From a virus, in IMG/VR virus record IMGVR_UViG_3300036766_000185, positions 1 through 64,000 of that record: a stretch of DNA of 64,000 bases; one strand, 5' to 3'. The notes under the pieces are model-generated. The model made no database searches and had not been told where the DNA came from. It saw only the letters and a list, made by a program, of their open reading frames with translations. Position numbers and translations under genes: made by a program. Positions 3,384-64,000 of the stretch are shown here, piece after piece; position 1 is the stretch's first letter; each line of letters begins with the position of its first letter.

Positions 3384-3968
3384 TTATCTCTCCTTAATGC
3401 ATGAACACGTAGGACAGTGCTTCATATCTATAGATCTAACTCCCGCGGGCTGCACTTTGTGCCAAAGTTCTAGATTCTCGATTCGATTGTCAGAACGAAT
3501 TCCGTTCTGATGATGCACATTCTCGTGGGGCAAAAGAGGGCGTCCTAACTGTTGCTCCATCATCAACCTATGCAGGGGAACGTATTTGCCGTTTATTCTG
3601 GTCTTAATATATCCGTAACCCGTGTCCACCAGGCCGTTCCCAAGTGTCCGTTCTCTCCAATCTTGAGGAAGACTCTCAAGAGGTTTTAAGCTCTGCCCTT
3701 TACGTTGCTGTGTCCAATGCCCGTTGCATAATGTATGCGCGATGGCGGGCTTAGAGCACCCTACAAAGCTGCACGATCTTCCAGAGTTTATTCTCCAACT
3801 GTTAATAGGTTTTAACTCATGCCCCGCTCGCAATTGATAAGCATGCGCGGGACATAGCAGGTAGTGAGTTGCGGGTCTATTGCACTCCGGACCTGTGCAC
3901 GTCTTTCCTTTGTTGACGCATTTCTTTTTCACGTCGTTTTCAGTTGCGTATAAGTAACTCAGAGCCAT
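3384..3968 (-). CDS. HNH homing endonuclease with two N-terminal Cys/His modules
   Basis: [37 protein letters not shown]; ATG at 3968 follows GGAGG. Confidence 0.9.
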
Positions 3969-4143
3969 TACGACTTTCCTCCGCAAGGATTAAACATTAA
4001 GTTACACTGATGTATAGGTGATATTGACTGTGATTTTCAGGGTGAAAGCTGAAGTCTTTGTAATTGCCTGTCCATCAATTCCATGCCAGAGCGGTAGATC
4101 TGTGCGCCCTGCATGATATTACCACACCCACACGGATTGAACA

Positions 4144-4509
4144 TTATTTCTTCACCAAAAGCCAAATGATTACATTGCGTCCGTTTGTGTCTACCGCCGT
4201 CAAAATGAATCTATATTTTAATCCTACAGGGACTTCCATTTCGCCATCGGGATTTGTAATGGTAATTTCTCGTTCCCCTGGTGGTAAATAAGCTGTCTCT
4301 GCAAATTGTCCAACAATCCCCACAGTAGGATGTACAATAAATAGTTCTCCGTAATCTCCGTAACTACAATCTTTTGTAATAAGAACTACTCCAATAGGTT
4401 TAGTTCCCCAGGCAAATGTTTTATCAATGGTTATAGTGCTTTCCCCTGGGAGAATTTGCGCGAGAAGCCCACTTACATAAAGTTGGTCTGAAAATCCAAT
4501 GATAGCCAT
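4144..4509 (-). CDS. Hypothetical protein (structural region)
   Basis: Start overlaps the stop of the upstream gene; beta-rich. Confidence 0.55.
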   Translation of the reverse strand: MAIIGFSDQLYVSGLLAQILPGESTITIDKTFAWGTKPIGVVLITKDCSYGDYGELFIVHPTVGIVGQFAETAYLPPGEREITITNPDGEMEVPVGLKYRFILTAVDTNGRNVIIWLLVKK

Positions 4510-6134
4510 TAGACTACCTCCGTCCAGTAAACTGTGATTACCGTATTACGATTATTGCTCAAAGGGTCGCCAGTTAGAAGCATTACATTACCTGGGTTGA
4601 TAACAAATAAAGCATCACCAATAACTTCGGTGCTATTCATGTTTTGTCCCGATTCATACCTAAAGAGGCTTGCCCCATTTGCTGTAATCGTCGGAGTCGT
4701 AAAGGTCTGAGAGATTGTCGCGGGATTTGAGGCTCCCCCAACATTTAGATTGACAGGGCTGATTGCTGTTCCATTTGCGGAGACCGTTGGGTTTGCAAAG
4801 ACTCTCCAAATACCTGAAACATTTGCTATCGTCAATCCGACATTGAGGCGAGTTATGCGAATTCGCTTTCCGCTTCCTATAGGATTCTTTAGTAGTAAAA
4901 CGGGATTAAAGGTTCCCGCCGTAGGGAGCGAAAAATCAAAAGCCAAACCAAAAGATTGTCCTAAATCAACGGCGGTAGCTGTGGATGACTGACTACTAAC
5001 TACGTTTACATCTAATGCTTGCTTTGTGCTAACAAGACTTGAGGTAATTGCATTTCCAGCACTATCAAAGAGTCCTCGAACTTGAGTTGTTAATTGTGTC
5101 TTAATTTGAGCCAGTGTTGCCTGAGTCGCAAAGTCCTTCCCCGCGAGTACCGCGAGAGTGGTCTGGGTGGCAAAGTCTTTTCCTGCAAGTGTCGCTAGGT
5201 TCCCGCCTTCTCTTGCTGGGTCGGCGGGGATTTTGTCTACGTCAGTCTTAATAAGAGCGAGTGTGGTTTCTGTTGCGAAATCTTTAGCCTCCAATGCCGC
5301 AAGTGTGGCTTCACTGGCTCTGGTGGAGAGCAACACATCTAGTTGGTCGCGCACCGATTGAACTTTCGCCTCTAGGTCATCAGTGTTGACTTCCAGGCTG
5401 TCGGTGTTATCAATAATCGACTGTAACTTGGCTTCTACGGTATCTAGTTCATCCTTGATTAAGGCAAGCGTGGTTTCTGTCGCAAAGTCCTCTGCCTCAA
5501 AGTCAGCCTTAATTGCAGCCAGGGTCGTTTCAGTGGAATAATCTTTGGCAATTAGTGTGTCTAGTTTCGCCTCAACCTCATCGACATTCAGGTTGATACT
5601 GTCCGCGTTCATGTTAATAGTATCCGCGTCCAGTCTAATTTCGGCGGTATTGGTAACAATGTCGTCGAGTTTAAGAAGGGCTGAATCTAAGTCTGCTTTT
5701 ACATCGAGTAGCGTCGCTTCAGTAGCAAAATCCTCAGCCGTGAACGTCGCTTCAGTAAGCAACGTCCCCAAAGTGGTTTCTGTGGCAAAGTCTTTACCTT
5801 CTAACGAAGACAACGTAGCTTCGGTGGCCAGCACGGACAGGTCTGTATCCAAATGTTGAAAGAGGGGTGTTAAATCTGCGCCTGTCTGTGCTGTCCCGCC
5901 CCATTTCTCTACATTCACGTCGGGGCTAACATTGATAACTGCATCTTCAACTACTAGCTCTGTATCAACCTTCAGGGCTAGTGTTCCGTCTCCTTGATCG
6001 GTTGATGCAATTGGTGCCCAGCCAATAATCTGTCCCGTACCATCAACTATAGGAAGACATAGACCTGCAAGTGATCGACCATTTCGATCAACGGGCAGAG
6101 CGGGAGGCTTGCTACCTGTTACGTCGTTAACCAT
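4509..6134 (-). CDS. Fibrous coiled-coil virion protein with DFATETTL repeats
   Basis: Many D(F/Y)(A/S)T(E/Q)(T/A)TL repeats; paralogue of 7002..8312; distinct beta-rich C-terminal domain. Confidence 0.7.
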   Translation of the reverse strand: MVNDVTGSKPPALPVDRNGRSLAGLCLPIVDGTGQIIGWAPIASTDQGDGTLALKVDTELVVEDAVINVSPDVNVEKWGGTAQTGADLTPLFQHLDTDLSVLATEATLSSLEGKDFATETTLGTLLTEATFTAEDFATEATLLDVKADLDSALLKLDDIVTNTAEIRLDADTINMNADSINLNVDEVEAKLDTLIAKDYSTETTLAAIKADFEAEDFATETTLALIKDELDTVEAKLQSIIDNTDSLEVNTDDLEAKVQSVRDQLDVLLSTRASEATLAALEAKDFATETTLALIKTDVDKIPADPAREGGNLATLAGKDFATQTTLAVLAGKDFATQATLAQIKTQLTTQVRGLFDSAGNAITSSLVSTKQALDVNVVSSQSSTATAVDLGQSFGLAFDFSLPTAGTFNPVLLLKNPIGSGKRIRITRLNVGLTIANVSGIWRVFANPTVSANGTAISPVNLNVGGASNPATISQTFTTPTITANGASLFRYESGQNMNSTEVIGDALFVINPGNVMLLTGDPLSNNRNTVITVYWTEVV

Positions 6135-20452: not shown

Positions 20453-21748
20453 TTATTGCTTGACGTAGCTTACTAGAAGCACGTCTCCTGTTAGTGGGGC
20501 TGTGTTGAAGGTGATTGTGTCTGCTACTATTGTGTAGTCGTTGGTCATCCCAGGAGCCTGTAGAAGCCCGTTAAGATAGACCGACACCGTTCCTGCTCCA
20601 GGAGTATTGGCTAGAACAAATGTATCGTTCACACCGTTGATATCCCCAGAGGGAATTTCATTAGCAACGTAGTCTGATGTGATAACAACTTCATCTAGAT
20701 AGGCCAGTCCATGATCCACGCTAGACCCATCTTTCCAATGGATACGCTCATCATCAGCCGACGACACAAAAAGAGAATCATCTGCAATATCCACCGCGGC
20801 TTCAAATGCTATGAAGTTAATCATCGTCGGTCCGGTGCCATTAGTCAAACGAACGGCTCCTGGAACAACGATACCGAGACTATCAATAGCAAGTCTAGCT
20901 TCTGCCATACTGAAGTTCCCTTCAGCGGCTAGGTTCTGAATGATACTAACGGTCTCTGGACCAGAAACGGAGACCTTCCACAGTCCTGATGTTACTGGTT
21001 CTCCGTCTTTGTAGAGTATTACACTTGGATCTGTAGCGTGTTGAATCTGCACCGGATGAAATATCTGCACCTGATCAGTCACCGCATCTATAATCAGATG
21101 ATTTATTGTACCAGTGAATAGTCCATCATCGTTGTTGTCAGAATCGATCTTCAGAACTTCTTCACTGAACTCATCAGCACGAGTCAAGAAAATGCGCCAA
21201 TACTTGTTCCCTCCTTGACCCAGATGATAGACCAATCCTGCACCGTCGAATGAAGAATCATTAAGAAGAGTAGCCAATCTCCATCTTAGCTCTGTAGTGT
21301 TAGGCTGCTGTCCATCGCTCACTATCCCTATGTCGTCAAAAGTATGTATATCACCCGTCACGGTTCCAATCAGACCATGTACGGTTGGGCTGCTTCCTGT
21401 CCCGCTTACACGATAGATCTTGTGTTGCTTCATTCCTATCGCATTAGACCAATTGATACGGTTGAAGTTAGTATCGTCTAGAACGTCGTTGCCCTCGGTA
21501 GTTGATGCTGAACCAGAAGCAACAGTCTCTCCAGATATCGCAACTCCGACTATTTCATATGTCCAAGTTGCAACTCCAGTTGTTCCCTGAGCGAGCACAC
21601 CTAGAATGCTTGGAACCTCAGCACTTCGTAGCAACGCACCACCAGTCTGCTCTAATTTGAATCCTTGAATATCAGCAGTAGACGATACATCGGCATCTTC
21701 TAGCGTGTGATCTAATACTTGTCTTCCAGAAACTTGTGTCCTAGGCAT
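20453..21748 (-). CDS. Fibre-like virion protein
   Basis: N-terminus MPRTQVSGRQVLD and C-terminal NEIPSGDING...DYT domain shared with other fibre genes. Confidence 0.7.
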   Translation of the reverse strand: MPRTQVSGRQVLDHTLEDADVSSTADIQGFKLEQTGGALLRSAEVPSILGVLAQGTTGVATWTYEIVGVAISGETVASGSASTTEGNDVLDDTNFNRINWSNAIGMKQHKIYRVSGTGSSPTVHGLIGTVTGDIHTFDDIGIVSDGQQPNTTELRWRLATLLNDSSFDGAGLVYHLGQGGNKYWRIFLTRADEFSEEVLKIDSDNNDDGLFTGTINHLIIDAVTDQVQIFHPVQIQHATDPSVILYKDGEPVTSGLWKVSVSGPETVSIIQNLAAEGNFSMAEARLAIDSLGIVVPGAVRLTNGTGPTMINFIAFEAAVDIADDSLFVSSADDERIHWKDGSSVDHGLAYLDEVVITSDYVANEIPSGDINGVNDTFVLANTPGAGTVSVYLNGLLQAPGMTNDYTIVADTITFNTAPLTGDVLLVSYVKQ

Positions 21749-54623: not shown

Positions 54624-55142
54624 CTAGCCTCTAAAGTCTGCTTCATTTTCTTTTCCTAAGCAACATTTTTTAAATTTCTTCTTGCTTCCGCACGGACAGA
54701 GAGTATTCCTCCCTATCTTTACTGATCGATATTCTTTATCAGCAATCGTAATCCCGTACAGATGATCAAGTTCATGCTGTACTACAATCGCCTCTAGCCC
54801 TGACAGCGCGTACTCTTTGTCGTCTCCGTTCTTCACAACGACCTCGGTCGCCCGCTGCACACTTTTCGTTAATCCTGGAAGACTCAAGCATCCTTCTGAG
54901 TGCACGACGAAATCAGACGCTTTGATGATCTCAGGATTCCAGAGATTTAGTTTAGTGTCTTTTACTCTCACGATCGCCGCTCGCTTTAGTACGCCGATCT
55001 GTACGGCAGCCAATCCAACTCCTGGAGTCTCTGAGTTTGTTAATTCAGTCTCCAATCTGTCAAAGAGCAGAGCTAGATTGTCTGCCTTTTCCACTGGGTC
55101 CGATATTCGATTTAAGAGCACTTTTGATAGTTCAATCATCAA
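54624..55142 (-). CDS. def: Peptide deformylase with C-terminal SEC-C motif
   Basis: GVGLAAVQ, EGCLS, HELDH; GRNTLCPCGSKKKFKKCC. Confidence 0.95.
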   Translation of the reverse strand: MMIELSKVLLNRISDPVEKADNLALLFDRLETELTNSETPGVGLAAVQIGVLKRAAIVRVKDTKLNLWNPEIIKASDFVVHSEGCLSLPGLTKSVQRATEVVVKNGDDKEYALSGLEAIVVQHELDHLYGITIADKEYRSVKIGRNTLCPCGSKKKFKKCCLGKENEADFRG

Positions 55143-55407: not shown

Positions 55408-56430
55408 CTATTGCTGCCGAGCGAACGTCGAAATCTCTGTTGTCAACTTAGAAACTAACTTCTGATCTGGACGCACAACGGCTAAAAAGTTCTTTATCCC
55501 ATTCGCTTTAATATCGCCATACGTATAGACGCTCCCACTTCTATGAATCAAGTCGTACAAAGTACCATATCTTATGATCTCTTCTAGCGTATCGACCTGC
55601 CCCTGCAACGGGCCTTGAAAGTACAACGTAAACTGTCCCTCCCTATATGGACTATAGGTCTTGTTCTTTTTAGTCAGGAACTTGATCACGTGCCCAATTT
55701 TTACCTTATCACCCGCAGCGTTGTCCTCTTCGATCCACTCACCGTGCTTAAAGCGCACACGAATAGACGCTGCAAATCTAATACCCATACCCCCTGGAGT
55801 AGTCTCAGGGTCACCATAAACTATACCGATTTTTAGTCGAATCTGATTTATCAATAGCACTATGCAGTTATTCCAATCGTTGTTCTCATTCAGCGAATTT
55901 AGCGCTGCAGACAGTCTACGAATAGCGCGATTCATAAGTAGCGCTCGCTCTCCAATCTTCTCTACATCATCAACAACTGACTTGTCAAGCTCGCTCTGTG
56001 GACTCATGGCAGCCACGCTGTCTAGAACAACTATTCCGCAATCACCCGATCGAACAAACGCTTCCAAGACTTCAACCGCCTGTTCAGAAGTTTCAGGACG
56101 TGAGTAGATAAGACTTGCTACATCAACGCCCATCAACTCCGCCCATTTAGAGTCCCAGGTATTCTCAACGTCAATATAAACTGCGGTCTTTCCCGACTTC
56201 TGCACATTTGCTATAAGTTTTAACGCCATCGTGGTTTTCCCAGAGCTTTCCGCTCCGTACCACTCGATGATTCGTCCAAGAGGCATCCCTCCGCCACATT
56301 CAATATCGAGAGAAAGTGAGCCAGTTGAGACACGCTCTAGATCAACAGTTTTAATCCCAGATCCTTTCATCGCCAGACCTGTCCCGTATTTCTTTTGGAG
56401 ACGACTCATGATCTCCTCGGCGTTACTCAT
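55408..56430 (-). CDS. recA: RecA recombinase
   Basis: STGSLSLD...GAESSGKTT, IDVE, VLDSVAA, INQIR, TTPGG; likely start MSNAEE at 56430. Confidence 0.97.
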   Translation of the reverse strand: MSNAEEIMSRLQKKYGTGLAMKGSGIKTVDLERVSTGSLSLDIECGGGMPLGRIIEWYGAESSGKTTMALKLIANVQKSGKTAVYIDVENTWDSKWAELMGVDVASLIYSRPETSEQAVEVLEAFVRSGDCGIVVLDSVAAMSPQSELDKSVVDDVEKIGERALLMNRAIRRLSAALNSLNENNDWNNCIVLLINQIRLKIGIVYGDPETTPGGMGIRFAASIRVRFKHGEWIEEDNAAGDKVKIGHVIKFLTKKNKTYSPYREGQFTLYFQGPLQGQVDTLEEIIRYGTLYDLIHRSGSVYTYGDIKANGIKNFLAVVRPDQKLVSKLTTEISTFARQQ

Positions 56431-56875
56431 CGCTGATACGCTCTCCGATTTCATTGATGTGCTTCATCAACTCTTTAGCTGCTCCTAGCGACTCCTGACT
56501 GTGAATATCGCGGGCATGCCCTGGAACTCGGCTTTTTCGCATTTCGAATTGAAATCCTCGTCCAAGTTTTACTCGATCTCGCTTTACTATGACGTACGGA
56601 TGAATCATTTTCAGAAATCGATCCGCCATGTTGGCTGTTAAAATCCAATCACCAACGGGCTTGTGCATCCCATGACGCTTGTAAACTCGAAGATATCCAC
56701 CGAATTTTCTGTGAATTGATTTCATAAGATCCAGATGAGTATTTACAATTCCGATTCTAAGCGAATAGACCGTAGTCTTTGTTAGAGGCTTCAAGCTTCG
56801 TAGAATTGTTAGATATCCTTCTCCGTCGAACAGACCAGCTAGATATTTCGGAGTTAGTCTATCTTCGATTTCCAT
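56423..56875 (-). CDS. LAGLIDADG homing endonuclease (single motif)
   Basis: YLAGLFDGEG...PYVIVKR. Confidence 0.9.
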   Translation of the reverse strand: MEIEDRLTPKYLAGLFDGEGYLTILRSLKPLTKTTVYSLRIGIVNTHLDLMKSIHRKFGGYLRVYKRHGMHKPVGDWILTANMADRFLKMIHPYVIVKRDRVKLGRGFQFEMRKSRVPGHARDIHSQESLGAAKELMKHINEIGERISDE

Positions 56876-57954: not shown

Positions 57955-57984
57955 AGTATACACTACCTGATGTATCGGTGTCAA
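57955..57984 (-). promoter_or_regulatory. Sigma-70-type promoter, near copy of 55372..55401
   Basis: TTGACA-CCGATACATCAGGTAGTG-TATACT. Confidence 0.8.
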
Positions 57985-58355
57985 GTATTTGACTTCCAAC
58001 GAATATCGTCAGTTCCAATGACGCGCTTCTCGAACATTATTAGCGTGAGACAGTGCCAGGCCGCGTGTGCTAGATGATGCTTTCCACTTTCGGGGTCATA
58101 CGATTCTCCGTTTAGCCATAGCATTAAATGTCGATACAGCGCATTTACCGAAAGCGACCATTTATAGCCCTTACGATAATTTGTGGGGTCATATTTCTGT
58201 GCCCCATACCCATAGACGCTGCCTAGCTCACTCAGCGCTTCGGGCGGTGCCCATCCCAACTGAGATTCTTTGCTACCCTTAGCTCCGCCAGTCTTAGGGT
58301 CAACAACAATCGTCTCTACTACTCGACTTGTCATTAGGCGCTCGCTAGATTTCAA
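57981..58355 (-). CDS. dATP/dGTP diphosphohydrolase-domain protein (DUF5664-like)
   Basis: YGAQKYDPTNYRKG...ALYRHL...GESYDPESGKHHLAHAAW. Confidence 0.85.
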   Translation of the reverse strand: MKSSERLMTSRVVETIVVDPKTGGAKGSKESQLGWAPPEALSELGSVYGYGAQKYDPTNYRKGYKWSLSVNALYRHLMLWLNGESYDPESGKHHLAHAAWHCLTLIMFEKRVIGTDDIRWKSNT

Positions 58356-60744: not shown

Positions 60745-60773
60745 AGTATATCACACCGTGTTAGTGCTGTTAA
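60745..60773 (-). promoter_or_regulatory. Sigma-70-type promoter (extended -10)
   Basis: TTAACA-17 bp-TATACT with TGn, upstream of GAGGAGG RBS of the SSB gene. Confidence 0.7.
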
Positions 60774-63277
60774 TTATTCTCTTTGGCATACTTGAGATTT
60801 CCAAGAGATTTCCCATACTTTACTTCCACCGCAAGAGGCACAATAATTCCAGGCATAGCTCTGGTCATTTCTCGTTCCATAATCTCCGCAGCTTTCTTCC
60901 AATCGCTCTCGCGTACCTCAGTAACCAGTGAATCATGAACAGGCAATACGAGCCGCGCTGTTGGACACTCTGCTTTGAAGGCCATAGCAATACGATTCAT
61001 TGCCGCATAAAGTATGTGTGCTTCAAGATTTTGTATCGGGAAATTCACTGCCGATCGCTCTGCATGACCTCTCATCTTCTGATCAGGAGACGTAATTTCT
61101 GGCAATCGACGACGCGCTCCAAAGAGACTTATTACAAATCCGCGCTGTCTAGCCTCTTGAATCTTTCCTTGTGCATACTGTCTCGCTTTTGGACAGTTGG
61201 CAAAAAAGCGGGTGATATACACCTGTGCTTTCTCTTCACTAATTTTGAAGTGAGAGGCGATTTTCCACGCCGACGCTCCCATAATAGTCGCGTACGTGAA
61301 CGCCTTAGCATTTTGTCTCTCTTCTTTTGTAATTTGATCTTCTGGCTTATTAAAGATCATTGATGCTATAACCTTGTGCACGTCGCGCTTTTGTCTAAGA
61401 TCTTCAATCATTTTCTGATCGTTCATGTAGTTTACCCAAATCCTGAATTGAATTTGCGCATAGTCTGCAGCCACCAAGACACAACCCTCGTCAGCCACAA
61501 AAATATCTCTCGCTCGACTAGCTATGGTTGCTTTGCCACTTTCATCTTTTTCATCACGCGCAATATTCTGCAGATTGGGATTACGAGAGGCTAAGCGGTG
61601 AATCTCAGTTCCATACAGTAGAAACTTGCTGTGAATACGTCCATCTTTTCGAATAAACGCTTCGAAATTCTCACCGTAGGCCGACACCAGATGCTCATAT
61701 GACCTCTTCTCTGTGATCATTCTTGGAATTTCGTGCACACCAGCAAGCTCTTTAAGCGTGATTTCATCTGTCGATGCATTCCCCGTTTTAGTCTTTTTAA
61801 CCGGCCTGAGCTTGAGAATATTGAACAGAATCTTTCGCAATTGTACTGGAGAACTGTAATTAATCTCATCTAGTTCCAGCATAACTTTGGCTTGCGCGGT
61901 AACAGGATGCGCCTGCAGTTGCTTGTCAATATCCTCGGCGTACGATTGATACTCTTGACGAGTGGCATGAAGTCTCTCAATATCAATCTTCACCCCTGCC
62001 CATTCTACGTCGATCAGCGTATTCTGCACCGGCATCATGATACGTCTGAACACGGGCATTAGATTTTGTGTGTCTAGCTCTTTTAAGAACAATCTACGCA
62101 ATCGTCCGGTAGCGTCCACGTCAGCAGCCGCATAGGGCCATAGCACGTCGAAAGGAATCTTAGCAAAATCGACGGTCTTCTTGGCGTATGTCTTGTCTCC
62201 CTCAATTACGAGCTTAGTCTTCCATTCCTCGATTTCTGCATTGTACATACCCAAGTCTGTGAACTCTAGCGCCAACTCTTTAAGGCCATGACTTCTTGCA
62301 TTCTCATTTAGGAGATGGTGCATGATAATCGTATCGTATGCGAAGTTCTTCACTTGAATCCCAATTGCTCGTAGAAAGGGAATATCAAACGCTCCTAGAT
62401 GTGCAGATTTTGACACGTCAGACTCAAAGAACGTCTTAATCTCTTGCATCACGTCTGCTTGACGCTCACTCCACCATTCTTTTCCGTCTACGAAAATCGG
62501 CACTACATACGCCACGCGCTCGGCAGGGGAGAACCCAATCGAAATAATGCGATGCTTATCTACATCAAGCCCTGTCGTTTCAAGGTCGAAGTCTACCGTC
62601 TCTGCCGCTCGTAGCTCTGCAAGAGCCGCATCCAGATCCTCAAGCGTTTTGACAAGTTGATAGTCCGTAGGCAGTCTCTTAGTCTCCAGCGATTTTCCTT
62701 CAAGCATCAACTTAATCATTCGCAAGTCCTTGACAAATTGATCTTTCAGTCGTGTATCTCCAGGATTGCGAAGAATATACGATGGATGATAGGTCGGTAC
62801 CAGTTTACAATTAAAATCCTCACTAGAGAAGATAGATCCTCGCAAGCGTGTAATACCCGCTTTATCAAGAAAGACCTTTAGCGCTGTCGCTCCAAGTAAT
62901 ACTATGATCTTAGGTTGCACTTCTCGAATTTCTCTGATTAGATACGACGCATCACCAACGATCTCACTCATGGTTGGGACACGATTCTCAGGAGGGCGCA
63001 CATGATACACATTTGTAATATAGACCTGCTCACGGTCAAATCCGGCCTCAATAAGACATTTCGTAAGCACCTGCCCAGCAGGACCAACAAATGGTTTTCC
63101 TTGCGCATCTTCCTCAGCGCCAGGAGCTTCACCAATAAACATGAGTTCAGCAGGCGTAGGACCCGCGCCACAGACATATCGTGCATTTGGGATAGGGAGC
63201 GCACCTTCTGGGCACTCCTTGAATACTACGCTAATTATAGGTTCTGCTATCTTTTTAGTGTTCATTCTCGTAGTCAT
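60770..63277 (-). CDS. polA: Family A DNA polymerase with N-terminal uracil-DNA glycosylase-like domain and 3'-5' exonuclease
   Basis: GEAPG...PFVG...YHPS (UDG family 4-like); DLETTG/FD/YAAAD (exo); [23 protein letters not shown] (pol). Confidence 0.93.
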
Positions 63278-64000
63278 GATACCGTCACAGCATCCTTTAT
63301 GGGATGTGCTATGCTGTGATACATTTGCATCTTCTCTTTGCTACATTCTACGAGCGTGTGAAACGAATCGTAAAAATCGTAATACAGTCGTCCTCTAAAG
63401 GACGACGTACGATTTTTAGCACCAAAGTTAATCTCAACAATGGGCATCCACTCTCCGCTAGCTTGATTTATAACTTTCAGCTTAGCGGTTTCTACGCCTC
63501 TCGTATTCAGTTCATTGTACATCACACCGACCACATCCGCGTCGTATCCAAAGTCCGAACTTTCTTTAATGTCATCGATTGTGGGAAGTTTGTTGCTGTC
63601 GCGCTCAGGTCGACGCAATTCTACAGTAGCTAGAATCGGCACGTTATATATGTTTCTCCAGCGTTTGATAGCGTCAGAGATCTGTATAGAGTCCTCTCGT
63701 CTGTTGTTGCTAAATTTCTGCGGCACTCGAATACGATGCAAACTGTCGATGATCACTACCAGTTGTTTCTCTCCAGCTATTTGCTTATACATACTGATGT
63801 ATCGTTCAACATCAGTAATATCTCTGATACTAGTCTCATCCTTAATAGCGAATGAATTGGAAAGACTGTGTAAATATTTCAGAGCATCGTCGTACTTTGC
63901 TTTTAGACGTGCTCGTTCCTCCTCAGTGTAGGCCTCGTTTAGCTCAATGCGATACTTGGGATTTAGCATTGAGTTGATCTCTAGCCCACAACGCATGGCT
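63274..64000 (-). CDS. dnaB: Replicative DnaB-like helicase, C-terminal part (5' end probably outside window)
   Basis: [35 protein letters not shown]; frame is open at the window edge. Confidence 0.85.

What the first reader, a model, noticed from the sequence alone, without database searches (positions are those of the whole stretch)
60770..61640. PolA with a rewired nucleotide-selection pocket
Catalytic residues look intact (motif A Asp, motif B Arg and Lys, motif C His-Asp), but normally near-invariant neighbours differ, using E. coli Pol I numbering. DYSQIE becomes DYAQIQ (steric-gate E710 to Q). KAINFGLIYG becomes [10 protein letters not shown] (F762 to Y, Y766 to M). TGRLSS becomes IHRLAS, PIQGTAAD becomes PIQNLEAH, and QVHDE becomes PVHDS. 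E710 and Y766 interact in the closed complex, so their joint change looks co-evolved rather than decayed. Inference: altered sugar or base selectivity (modified dNTP, ribonucleotide tolerance, lower fidelity) or a specialised repair/recombination polymerase.
Basis: partly seen in the sequence, partly recalled or inferred. Interest (0 to 1): 0.72.

Follow-up and report, generated by a model that had tools for sequence, protein, structure and literature searches.

The report
Z-genome phage polymerase, rewired pocket
The only DNA polymerase of this uncultured 96-kb phage carries three linked, conserved changes around the nucleotide pocket, and it sits in a genome with genes for making 2-aminoadenine (Z) in place of adenine, so it may be a third, independently evolved Z-DNA polymerase, though nothing has been tested at the bench.

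Summary
ORF 60770-63277 (-) encodes an 835-aa family-4 UDG / 3'-5' exonuclease / PolA fusion. Catalytic residues are intact, but E. coli E710 is Gln, Y766 is Met and F762 is Tyr.

- **Not decay:** Q710 with M/F766 is fixed in a monophyletic clade of six divergent metagenomic proteins (47-72% identity). Its sister clade keeps E710/Y766.
- **A third partner:** A852E occurs only in the seven proteins that carry Q710. That includes an unrelated singleton, so the triad arose twice among about 500 PolAs.
- **Genome context:** this is the genome's only polymerase. The genome also encodes a PurZ0-type synthetase (catalytic Asp replaced by Ser; best PDB match 7VF6) and a DUF5664 dATP/dGTP pyrophosphohydrolase. 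The PurZ0 lead came from earlier scan notes on this genome and I verified it.
- **Relatives:** every testable clade member has PurZ0. The one sister genome seen has a syntenic replication module without PurZ0 or DUF5664.
- **Not a known DpoZ:** identity to both DpoZ subfamilies is only 21-23%.

Best reading (confidence about 0.45): a convergent Z-adapted replicase. Caveat: 38 of 50 PurZ-linked PolAs keep the canonical pocket. No biochemistry exists.

The parts
60770..63277 (-). Gene for the 835-aa UDG / 3'-5' exonuclease / family A DNA polymerase fusion (P0001). Its start overlaps the stop of the primase-helicase gene (ATGA).
   Evidence: ORF list; translation; Pfam PF03167 1.7e-37, PF01612 3.1e-19, PF00476 3e-96; AlphaFold mean pLDDT 86.4, pTM 0.75.
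62720..63169 (-). Family-4 UDG-like domain (residues 37-186). The GEAPG and HPSY motifs are kept; the Fe-S cluster cysteines are lost.
   Evidence: Pfam. Alignment to Thermotoga TM0511 (1vk2), 133 bits: the CxxC and two further Cys of TM0511 align to CPEG, T and H.
62075..62662 (-). 3'-5' proofreading exonuclease domain (residues 206-401) with Exo I D231/E233, Exo II D298 and Exo III Y382/D386 conserved.
   Evidence: Pfam; invariant columns of alignment A1.
60803..61939 (-). Polymerase domain (residues 447-825) with catalytic D605, R654, K658, H781 and D782.
61448..61450 (-). Codon CAA = Q610, the equivalent of the E. coli steric-gate E710 (motif A position A2).
   Evidence: Q at this site occurs only in the 6-member clade and in the singleton P0080.
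61280..61282 (-). Codon ATG = M666, the equivalent of E. coli Y766 (motif B position B4, the residue that is Phe in both known DpoZ subfamilies).
   Evidence: PMC8599892 and PMC10201439.
61022..61024 (-). Codon GAA = E752, the equivalent of E. coli A852, three residues after the minor-groove reader Q849. This is the third member of the covarying triad.
   Evidence: E852 is found only where Q710 is found.
61601..61603 (-). Codon ATT = I559, the equivalent of E. coli T666, two residues before the minor-groove reader R668. The change is derived in this clade.
61292..61294 (-). Codon TAC = Y662, the equivalent of E. coli F762 (position B3). This is the T7-like state, shared with the sister clade and common in phages.
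57981..58355 (-). DUF5664 (PF18909) dATP/dGTP diphosphohydrolase homologue, 124 aa (P0269), 2.4 kb downstream of polA.
   Evidence: Pfam 3.1e-29. The Wayne orthologue family is characterised as a dATP>dGTP pyrophosphohydrolase (PMC12884076). It is present in G001 and absent from the syntenic slot of sister genome L097.
63274..64000 (-). 3' part of the DnaG-primase / DnaB-helicase fusion gene (genome 63274-65583), immediately upstream of polA. The PurZ0 gene lies further upstream, outside the window at genome 68017-69093 (L003:5017-6093:-).
   Evidence: Pfam; PurZ0.

Best explanation
This is the sole, replicative DNA polymerase of an uncultured 96-kb phage that very probably replaces adenine with 2-aminoadenine (Z). 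It is a three-domain fusion of a family-4 UDG-like domain, a proofreading exonuclease and a PolA polymerase. In its clade the hydrogen-bonded E710-Y766 pair that shapes the nascent-base-pair pocket has been replaced as a unit. The steric-gate Glu became the isosteric but uncharged Gln. The Tyr lost its hydroxyl and became Met or Phe. A new carboxylate appeared one helical turn after the minor-groove reader Q849 (A852E), and T666 next to the other minor-groove reader R668 became Ile or Val. I infer that this remodelling adapts the polymerase site to ZTGC-DNA synthesis. A pocket that stabilises the closed complex less would make fingers closing depend more on the strength of the nascent pair. 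That would favour three-bond Z:T and G:C pairs over two-bond A:T pairs, and so help exclude dATP in a phage that lacks DatZ- or DutZ-type dATPases. The sequence facts, conservation, covariation and gene context are shown. The Z content of the DNA and the effect on selectivity are inferred.
For: (1) It is intact and under constraint. The catalytic and exonuclease residues are conserved and the model is confident. Q710 with M/F766 is fixed in six proteins of 47-72% mutual identity that form a clade with SH-aLRT support 99. The sister clade (support 97) is all E710/Y766.
(2) Covariation. E852 occurs in exactly the seven proteins that have Q710, including P0080. P0080 is a non-UDG PolA whose 119 nearest relatives are all E710/Y766 with A or S at 852.
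(3) It is the only polymerase: one PolA, no PolB and no PrimPol in a CheckV-complete genome.
(4) Z genes. The PurZ0-like synthetase has Ser in place of the catalytic Asp, and its best PDB hit is 7VF6, the PurZ0 of Gordonia phage Archimedes, at E=8e-46. A DUF5664 gene is also present.
(5) Link within the lineage. PurZ0 lies on the same record as the Q710 polymerase in G000, G001 and G081 (direct). Contig-length pairing among the top five hits points the same way for P0003 and P0005. The sister genome L097 has the same replication module but no PurZ0 or DUF5664 in 22.6 kb.
(6) Among 80 UDG-PolA records in IMG/VR, non-Glu at 710 occurs in 2 of 5 PurZ-positive records and in 0 of 75 others.
(7) Literature. 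The only substitution shared by both DpoZ subfamilies is Tyr to Phe at this same B4 site, and the exonuclease-deficient DpoZ keeps its roughly 36-fold preference for Z, so selectivity lies in the polymerase site (PMC8599892, PMC10201439). In Klenow fragment, Y766A is impaired at A/T templates but near wild type for G-dCTP (PMC3715850).
(8) The Q710 genomes and the D710 genome G002 lack dUTPase-family genes, which 17 of 23 complete PurZ-positive records carry.
Against: - Most PurZ-linked PolAs keep the canonical pocket: 38 of 50 within 10 kb of a Ser-type PurZ are E/F/Y, including three other PurZ-positive UDG-PolA records. The triad is therefore not needed to replicate a PurZ genome.
- The DpoZ authors judged the B4 change unlikely to explain A/Z discrimination.
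- The association rests on few independent events: the Q clade, the D710 lineage and L223.
- Only one sister genome could be examined, and only 22.6 kb of its 98.5 kb.
- The context of P0080 is unknown.
- In Klenow fragment, E710Q alone is a slow mutator, so the change may need compensation without giving any new specificity.
- No nucleoside analysis or enzyme assay exists.
- I could not measure distances in the model, so the proximity of E752 to Q610 and M666 is inferred from covariation only.
Confidence: 0.45

Rival explanations
1. Structural compensation without any change in substrate choice. Y766 drifted to Phe or Met, which is tolerated in Klenow fragment and Taq. The now unpaired buried carboxylate of E710 was neutralised to Gln, and A852E restored local charge. 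On this reading the enzyme copies whatever dNTP pool it is given, and the pool is fixed by PurZ0, DUF5664 and host enzymes, as in cyanophage S-2L, whose PrimPol is not selective.
For: Y766F behaves like wild type in Klenow fragment. F766 with E710 occurs 22 times in UDG-PolAs, some in complete PurZ-negative records such as G024 and G026. Most PurZ-linked PolAs are canonical. S-2L shows that a selective polymerase is dispensable.
Against: The triad arose twice in exactly the same combination. It is fixed across deep divergence. It appears on the same branch as PurZ0. Non-Glu at 710 was seen in IMG/VR UDG-PolAs only in PurZ-positive records. These genomes lack DatZ and DutZ.
Confidence: 0.3
2. 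Altered sugar selectivity. The changed steric gate and B4 residue relax discrimination against rNTPs or ddNTPs.
For: E710 and Y766 are the classical sugar-discrimination residues. Y762 is the T7-like state that accepts ddNTPs.
Against: Gln has the same shape as Glu, so the steric block on the 2'-OH should persist. Y762 is shared with the sister clade and with 40 other relatives. Nothing in the genome points to ribonucleotide use. In Klenow fragment, E710Q did not improve binding of the rNTPs tested (Table 1).
Confidence: 0.08
3. Adaptation to a modified pyrimidine, such as 5-hydroxymethyluracil or a hypermodified thymine, as in SPO1, SP-10 and other phages with UDG-PolAs. The catalytically competent-looking UDG domain would police uracil or thymine.
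For: The nearest cultured relatives by tblastn are SPO1-like and SP-10-like UDG-PolAs at 26-30% identity. The UDG motifs GEAPG and HPSY are intact.
Against: The genome has no ThyA-type hydroxymethylase, ThyX or dUTPase. The sister clade has the same UDG domain with a canonical pocket. The genes gained on this branch are purine genes (PurZ0, DUF5664).
Confidence: 0.07
4. A decaying or inactive polymerase.
For: E710Q alone cripples Klenow fragment.
Against: It is the sole polymerase of a complete genome. All catalytic residues are intact, the triad is conserved in six divergent homologues, and the fold is predicted with confidence.
Confidence: 0.03

Closest known systems
DpoZ, phiVC8-like subfamily (PolA cluster 18; PDB 7PBK; Vibrio phage phiVC8, Acinetobacter phage SH-Ab 15497)
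   Same: A PolA with proofreading exonuclease, encoded a few kb from a PurZ-type synthetase. The motif B Tyr (B4, Eco Y766) has lost its hydroxyl.
   Different: Only about 23% identical to P0001, which is less than E. coli Pol I at 31%. It has no UDG domain, keeps E710 and A852, has Leu at B3, and carries specific insertions 1-3 and extended exonuclease helices. Its partner is ATP-using PurZ with DatZ, not PurZ0.
DpoZ, Wayne-like subfamily (PolA cluster 19 / DpoZ-1, PurZ0 phages of Actinobacteria)
   Same: Linked to PurZ0 and a stand-alone DUF5664. Its B4 residue is Phe.
   Different: 21.5% identity over 451 residues. It has no UDG domain and keeps E710. Those phages are about 44 kb and always carry DutZ, which this genome lacks.
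UDG-PolA fusions of phages (SPO1 gp31, SP-10, N4-like cluster 17)
   Same: The same three-domain architecture, with an N-terminal family-4 UDG. The UDG catalytic motifs are retained, as in the non-N4 members.
   Different: Those enzymes have a canonical E710/Y766 pocket. They are associated with modified uracil or with no modification, not with PurZ.
Klenow fragment mutants E710Q, Y766F and Y766A (Hohlbein et al. 2013, PMC3715850)
   Same: The same two positions. The laboratory mutants show that this pair controls fingers closing and nascent-pair geometry.
   Different: These are single laboratory substitutions. E710Q alone is slow and mutagenic. The natural enzyme combines Q710 with M/F766 and E852, a combination never tested.

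Membership tests
Family A DNA polymerase (PF00476) | Profile match above the curated cut-off, with motif A Asp, motif B Arg/Lys and motif C His-Asp | tested here: met
   323 bits against a cut-off of 34.3. D605, R654, K658, H781 and D782 align to Klenow D705, R754, K758, H881 and D882.
Family A DNA polymerase (PF00476) | Hydrogen-bonded Glu (A2) - Tyr (B4) pair, described as invariant in the family | tested here: not met
   Q610 and M666. The pair is called invariant in PMC3715850. This is a departure within the family, not an exclusion from it.
UDG-PolA fusion | [quoted passage not shown] | tested here: met
   PF03167 at 1.7e-37 over residues 37-186. 133 bits to TM0511. GEAPG and HPSY are present; the Fe-S cysteines are absent.
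DpoZ (Z-selective PolA) | Encoded in a genome with a PurZ-type synthetase (Ser replacing the catalytic Asp) | tested here: met
   P0268 carries GSEGKG. The best PDB hit is PurZ0 7VF6 at 8e-46. The gene lies 4.7 kb upstream of polA.
DpoZ (Z-selective PolA) | Membership of the phiVC8-like or Wayne-like sequence cluster | tested here: not met
   21-23% identity and 48-88 bits to the DpoZ enzymes, against 257 bits to E. coli Pol I. The nearest relatives are UDG-PolAs.
DpoZ (Z-selective PolA) | Tyr to Phe at motif B position B4 | tested here: inconclusive
   The hydroxyl is lost, but the residue is Met in this protein and three relatives, and Phe in P0005 and P0006.
DpoZ (Z-selective PolA) | Biochemical preference for dZTP over dATP | not testable with these tools
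   Needs purified enzyme.
PurZ0-type Z-genome phage | DutZ (dUTPase-family dATPase) present. It is reported in all 98 PurZ0 genomes of isolates. | tested here: not met
   No PF00692 match in G000, G001 or G081. The report for isolates is in PMC12884076.

The most novel reading that the evidence does not exclude
This is a third, independent origin of a 2-aminoadenine-selective family A polymerase, this time inside the UDG-PolA group. Selectivity would be built by dismantling the 'invariant' E710-Y766 hydrogen-bonded pair and moving its carboxylate to position 852. The result would be a natural 'weak-pair filter' that rejects two-bond A:T pairs at the fingers-closing step and lets the phage do without DatZ- or DutZ-type dATPases. 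The same triad in the unrelated P0080 would then mark a fourth origin.
Probability: 0.3. Interest if true: 0.8.

Novelty: new variant of a known kind. Interest (0 to 1): 0.62.

Why it matters
How DpoZ enzymes prefer Z to A inside the polymerase site is unresolved. The only shared clue so far is the Tyr-to-Phe change at B4, and no ternary complex structure exists (PMC8599892, PMC10201439). A separate PurZ-linked lineage that changed the same residue, its hydrogen-bond partner E710 and a third covarying site gives three defined positions to revert and assay. That makes the question directly testable.

The finding also offers an explanation for why the UDG Pfam domain came out associated with dZ-modified contigs in a 2025 metagenomic association study, which left the link undefined (10.1101/2025.10.22.683976). 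The explanation is that UDG is fused to the polymerase in some PurZ phages.

It further shows that a substitution that is mutagenic and slow in Klenow fragment can be a fixed natural state when it is accompanied by partner changes. That is useful for engineering polymerases for non-standard bases.

Tried and rejected
The contigs of P0003, P0005, P0009-P0011, P0123, P0124 and P0080 could therefore not be fetched.
- I could not extend the sister contig beyond 22.6 kb. The genome search does not hold it, and I had no usable handle for the fetch from genomes.
- A single-protein scan of IMG/VR with P0001 found nothing, and a scan with P0080 also found nothing.
- A full MAFFT alignment of 268 proteins timed out. 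I replaced it with hmmalign to a Klenow-anchored profile.
- Matching contig lengths between protein searches can mislead. P0091 and record G085 share the length 45,659 by chance. I trust this only for P0003 and P0005, where the top five PolA hits pair with the top five PurZ0 hits.
- The HD_3 (DatZ) search was uninformative, with 0 of 44 PurZ-positive records matching.
- I considered and rejected the idea that loss of Y766 is a general signature of PurZ-linked polymerases, because 38 of 50 keep Tyr.
- No coordinates are returned for the AlphaFold model, so I did not measure distances among residues 610, 666 and 752. I built no closed-complex model.
Full report
**Observation.** The ORF at window 60770-63277 (minus strand) encodes 835 residues. 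One search places them at:
- IHRLAS: 61586-61603
- DYAQIQ: 61448-61465
- [10 protein letters not shown]: 61277-61306
- PIQNLEAH: 61016-61039
- PVHDS: 60929-60943

The HMMER alignment to Klenow fragment (E=4e-74) and a Klenow-anchored profile alignment confirm the equivalences:

| E. coli | This protein |
|---|---|
| E710 | Q610 |
| F762 | Y662 |
| Y766 | M666 |

R668, Q849, D705, R754, K758, H881 and D882 are all retained.

**What the gene is.** Pfam finds three domains:
- a family-4 UDG domain (residues 37-186, 1.7e-37)
- a 3'-5' exonuclease (206-401, 3.1e-19)
- DNA_pol_A (447-825, 3e-96)

AlphaFold2 with a 12-sequence alignment gives mean pLDDT 86.4 and pTM 0.75. The exonuclease carboxylates are invariant in the alignment. 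The UDG domain keeps the GEAPG and HPSY motifs but has lost the Fe-S cysteines of Thermotoga TM0511. The window belongs to a 96,181-bp IMG/VR virus record that CheckV rates complete. It has one PolA and no PolB or PrimPol. The gene's ATG overlaps the stop of a DnaG-DnaB primase-helicase gene. It is followed by an exonuclease-like gene, RuvC, RecA and other replication and recombination genes. It is therefore the replicase, not an accessory repair enzyme.

**Are the substitutions conserved?** I aligned about 265 relatives from two database searches.
- Q710 occurs in P0001 and five metagenomic homologues, P0003-P0007. These are 47-72% identical to one another. All have Tyr at 762 and Met (four proteins) or Phe (two) at 766.
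- The next relatives, P0008-P0011, P0123 and P0124 (43-48% identity), all have E710 and Y766.
- A quick IQ-TREE tree gives SH-aLRT support of 99 for the Q710 clade, 97 for the E710 sister clade and 100 for the two together.
- A scan for residues fixed in the Q clade but different in the sister clade and outgroups returned only eight derived sites. Five are in polymerase motifs: Y659F, T666I/V, E710Q, Y766M/F and A852E.
- Glu at 852 occurs in exactly seven sequences, the same seven that have Q710.
- The seventh is P0080, a 1110-aa PolA without a UDG domain. Its 119 nearest relatives, Bacteroidota-type Pol I at 43% identity or less, all have E710, Y766 and Ala or Ser at 852.

The triad Q710 + non-Tyr766 + E852 therefore arose twice independently among roughly 500 PolAs examined. 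This is good evidence for structural coupling and against decay. By contrast, Y762 (40 cases) and Ser at E883 (117 cases, the commonest state) are ordinary in this group.

**Genome context.** Earlier scan notes on this genome suggested a PurZ-like gene beyond the window. I checked it.
- L003:5017-6093 (genome 68017-69093, 4.7 kb upstream of polA, same strand) encodes a 358-aa adenylosuccinate-synthetase homologue (PF00709, 5.5e-33).
- It carries GSEGKG, with Ser where PurA has the catalytic Asp. That Ser is invariant in an alignment with phiVC8, Wayne, Hiyaa, DMU1 and PSA28 PurZ.
- Its best solved relative is 7VF6 (E=8e-46), ahead of archaeal PurA and phiVC8 or S-2L PurZ. 7VF6 is the PurZ0 of Gordonia phage Archimedes (PMC12884076).
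- Window 57981-58355 encodes a 124-aa DUF5664 protein (PF18909, 3.1e-29). The Wayne member of this family is a dATP>dGTP pyrophosphohydrolase.
- The genome has no HD_3 (DatZ), DUF550, dUTPase, ThyA or ThyX match.

**Does the pocket track PurZ0?** PurZ0 and a Q710 polymerase lie on the same record in G000, in G001 (95,342 bp) and in G081 (93,921 bp). For P0003 and P0005 the link is indirect: their contigs have the same lengths as those of two of the five best PurZ0 homologues.

The one sister-clade genome I could reach is contig OBEQ011195658.1 (98,527 bp), of which locus L097 covers 22.6 kb. It has the same gene order, from the PD-(D/E)XK nuclease and primase-helicase through polA to RuvC, RecA and deformylase. 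It has no match to PurZ0 or DUF5664. A DNMK-like kinase sits in the DUF5664 slot. No PurZ homologue on a contig of that length appears among the 120 best hits.

Among 80 UDG-PolA records in IMG/VR, five have a Ser-type synthetase:
- two of these carry a non-Glu residue at 710: G001 has Q, and G002 has D710 with F766
- none of the other 75 records has a non-Glu residue at 710

G002's polymerase lineage (P0127 and P0168) is the next outgroup of the Q and sister clades. Its PurZ is only 39% identical to P0268.

**Comparison with known Z polymerases.** I extracted the polymerases of phiVC8, Wayne, DMU1, PSA28 and Hiyaa.
- The four DpoZ-type enzymes have E710 and Phe at 766, with Leu or Phe at 762. 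Hiyaa is canonical.
- P0001 is 21-23% identical to them, less than to E. coli Pol I at 31%. It belongs to neither DpoZ subfamily.
- Czernecki et al. report that Tyr to Phe at this B4 position is the only substitution shared by the two convergent DpoZ subfamilies. They also report that an exonuclease-deficient DpoZ keeps its preference (mid-points 75 µM dATP against 2.1 µM dZTP). They judge that B4 alone is unlikely to explain selectivity, and they ask whether other PolA subfamilies have made the same shift (PMC8599892, PMC10201439).
- A 2025 preprint found the UDG Pfam domain associated with dZ-modified contigs and left the link undefined. A UDG-PolA in PurZ phages would explain it.

**A necessary caveat.** I fetched 80 IMG/VR loci around Ser-type PurZ genes and found 50 PolAs within 10 kb:

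| State at 710/762/766 | Count | Note |
|---|---|---|
| E/F/Y (canonical) | 38 | |
| E/F/F | 6 | |
| E/L/Y | 3 | |
| Q/Y/M | 1 | G081 |
| D/F/Y | 1 | |
| E/F/T | 1 | |

Three further PurZ-positive UDG-PolA records (G011, G061, G062) are also canonical. The remodelled pocket is therefore not required in a PurZ genome, and the B4 Phe signature is not general in metagenomic PurZ-linked PolAs.

One further pattern is suggestive but rests on few lineages. A dUTPase-family (DutZ-like) gene is present in 17 of 23 complete PurZ-positive records. It is absent from all three Q710 genomes, from G002 (D710) and from G110 (B4 = Thr), as well as from G011 and G062.

**How it most likely works.**
- Shown: the enzyme is intact, it is the sole replicase, the triad is conserved and covarying, and it is linked to PurZ0 within its lineage.
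- From the literature: the E710-Y766 pair forms part of the nascent-pair pocket. In Klenow fragment E710Q is a slow mutator (Kd2 for A-dTTP of 230 µM against 0.83 µM). Y766F is near wild type. Y766A is impaired at A and T templates but close to wild type for G-dCTP (PMC3715850).
- Inferred: the clade replaced the pair as a unit. The charge was removed at 710, the hydroxyl was removed at 766 and a carboxylate was added at 852, with T666 changed beside R668. A pocket that contributes less to closure would make incorporation depend more on the stability of the nascent pair. That would favour Z:T and G:C over A:T and give intrinsic exclusion of dATP.

I put this at about 0.45. The main rival is compensated drift with no change of specificity, at about 0.3. 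Altered sugar selectivity, a pyrimidine modification and inactivity are each unlikely, for the reasons given under the rival explanations.

**Novelty.** I found no description of a natural PolA with Gln at the steric gate, of the A852E partner, or of a UDG-PolA linked to PurZ. The literature searches returned only the two DpoZ subfamilies and laboratory E710 mutants. The kinds involved (PolA, UDG-PolA, Z-genome phage, DpoZ) are known, so I class this as a new variant of a known kind.

**Limits.** No biochemistry or nucleoside data exist. Only one partial sister genome was available. There are no model coordinates for distance checks. The associations rest on two or three independent evolutionary events.

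Noticed in passing
L177-L256 (IMG/VR loci around PurZ genes): Of 50 PolAs within 10 kb of a Ser-type PurZ, 38 keep Tyr at B4 (Eco Y766). Many of these have Wayne-like motif B strings (KRINFSVIYGI, against Wayne's KRANFSLIFGV). The published 'unique Phe at B4' signature of DpoZ therefore does not hold for most metagenomic PurZ-linked PolAs.
   Followed up: partly
L006:10001-12478 (IMGVR_UViG_3300019458_000027, 104,918 bp): A second PurZ-positive UDG-PolA lineage has Asp at the steric gate and Phe at B4 (DYRQMDFRMW; KTVVYSMIFKI). It is the next outgroup of the clade studied here. Its relative P0168 is D710/Y766.
   Followed up: partly
P0080 (JGI contig of 11,945 bp, not retrievable): This singleton 1110-aa PolA has no UDG domain and lies nearest Bacteroidota Pol I (43%). 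It independently carries Q710, F766 and E852. Its genomic context is unknown.
   Followed up: partly
L003:6090-7628 (genome 69090-70628), minus strand: A 512-aa protein with an ABC-type ATPase N-terminus (PF00005, 6e-12) ends 4 nt inside the PurZ0 start. It is not adjacent to PurZ0 in G001. Another reader of this genome flagged it as a possible purine-modification partner.
   Followed up: no
L097:15971-16528, 3925-4677 and 20630-21694 (sister genome): The sister phage has a DNMK-like deoxynucleotide monophosphate kinase exactly where this genome has DUF5664. It also has a Thg1-like gene and a T4-type RNA ligase that are absent here.
   Followed up: partly
window 63143-63277: The public gene call for this polymerase (P0002, 790 aa) starts 45 codons later than the ORF. 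Homology to TM0511 UDG begins at residue 6-10, so the 835-aa start, ATGA-coupled to the primase-helicase stop, is the better one.
   Followed up: yes
window 54624-55142, 56423-56875: A phage-encoded peptide deformylase carries a C-terminal SEC-C zinc motif. A LAGLIDADG-like ORF lies between RecA and RuvC.
   Followed up: no
P0006, P0100, P0131-P0134 and others: Many UDG-PolA homologues are 1100-1600 aa and match in 2-4 stretches. At least one (P0100) has an HNH/intein-like insert inside the TGRLS motif. Inteins or homing elements seem frequent in this family.
   Followed up: no
L228 (G110, 46,964 bp, complete): This PurZ-linked PolA has Thr at B4 (KTANFSILTGI), in a genome that also lacks a dUTPase-family gene.
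   Followed up: no
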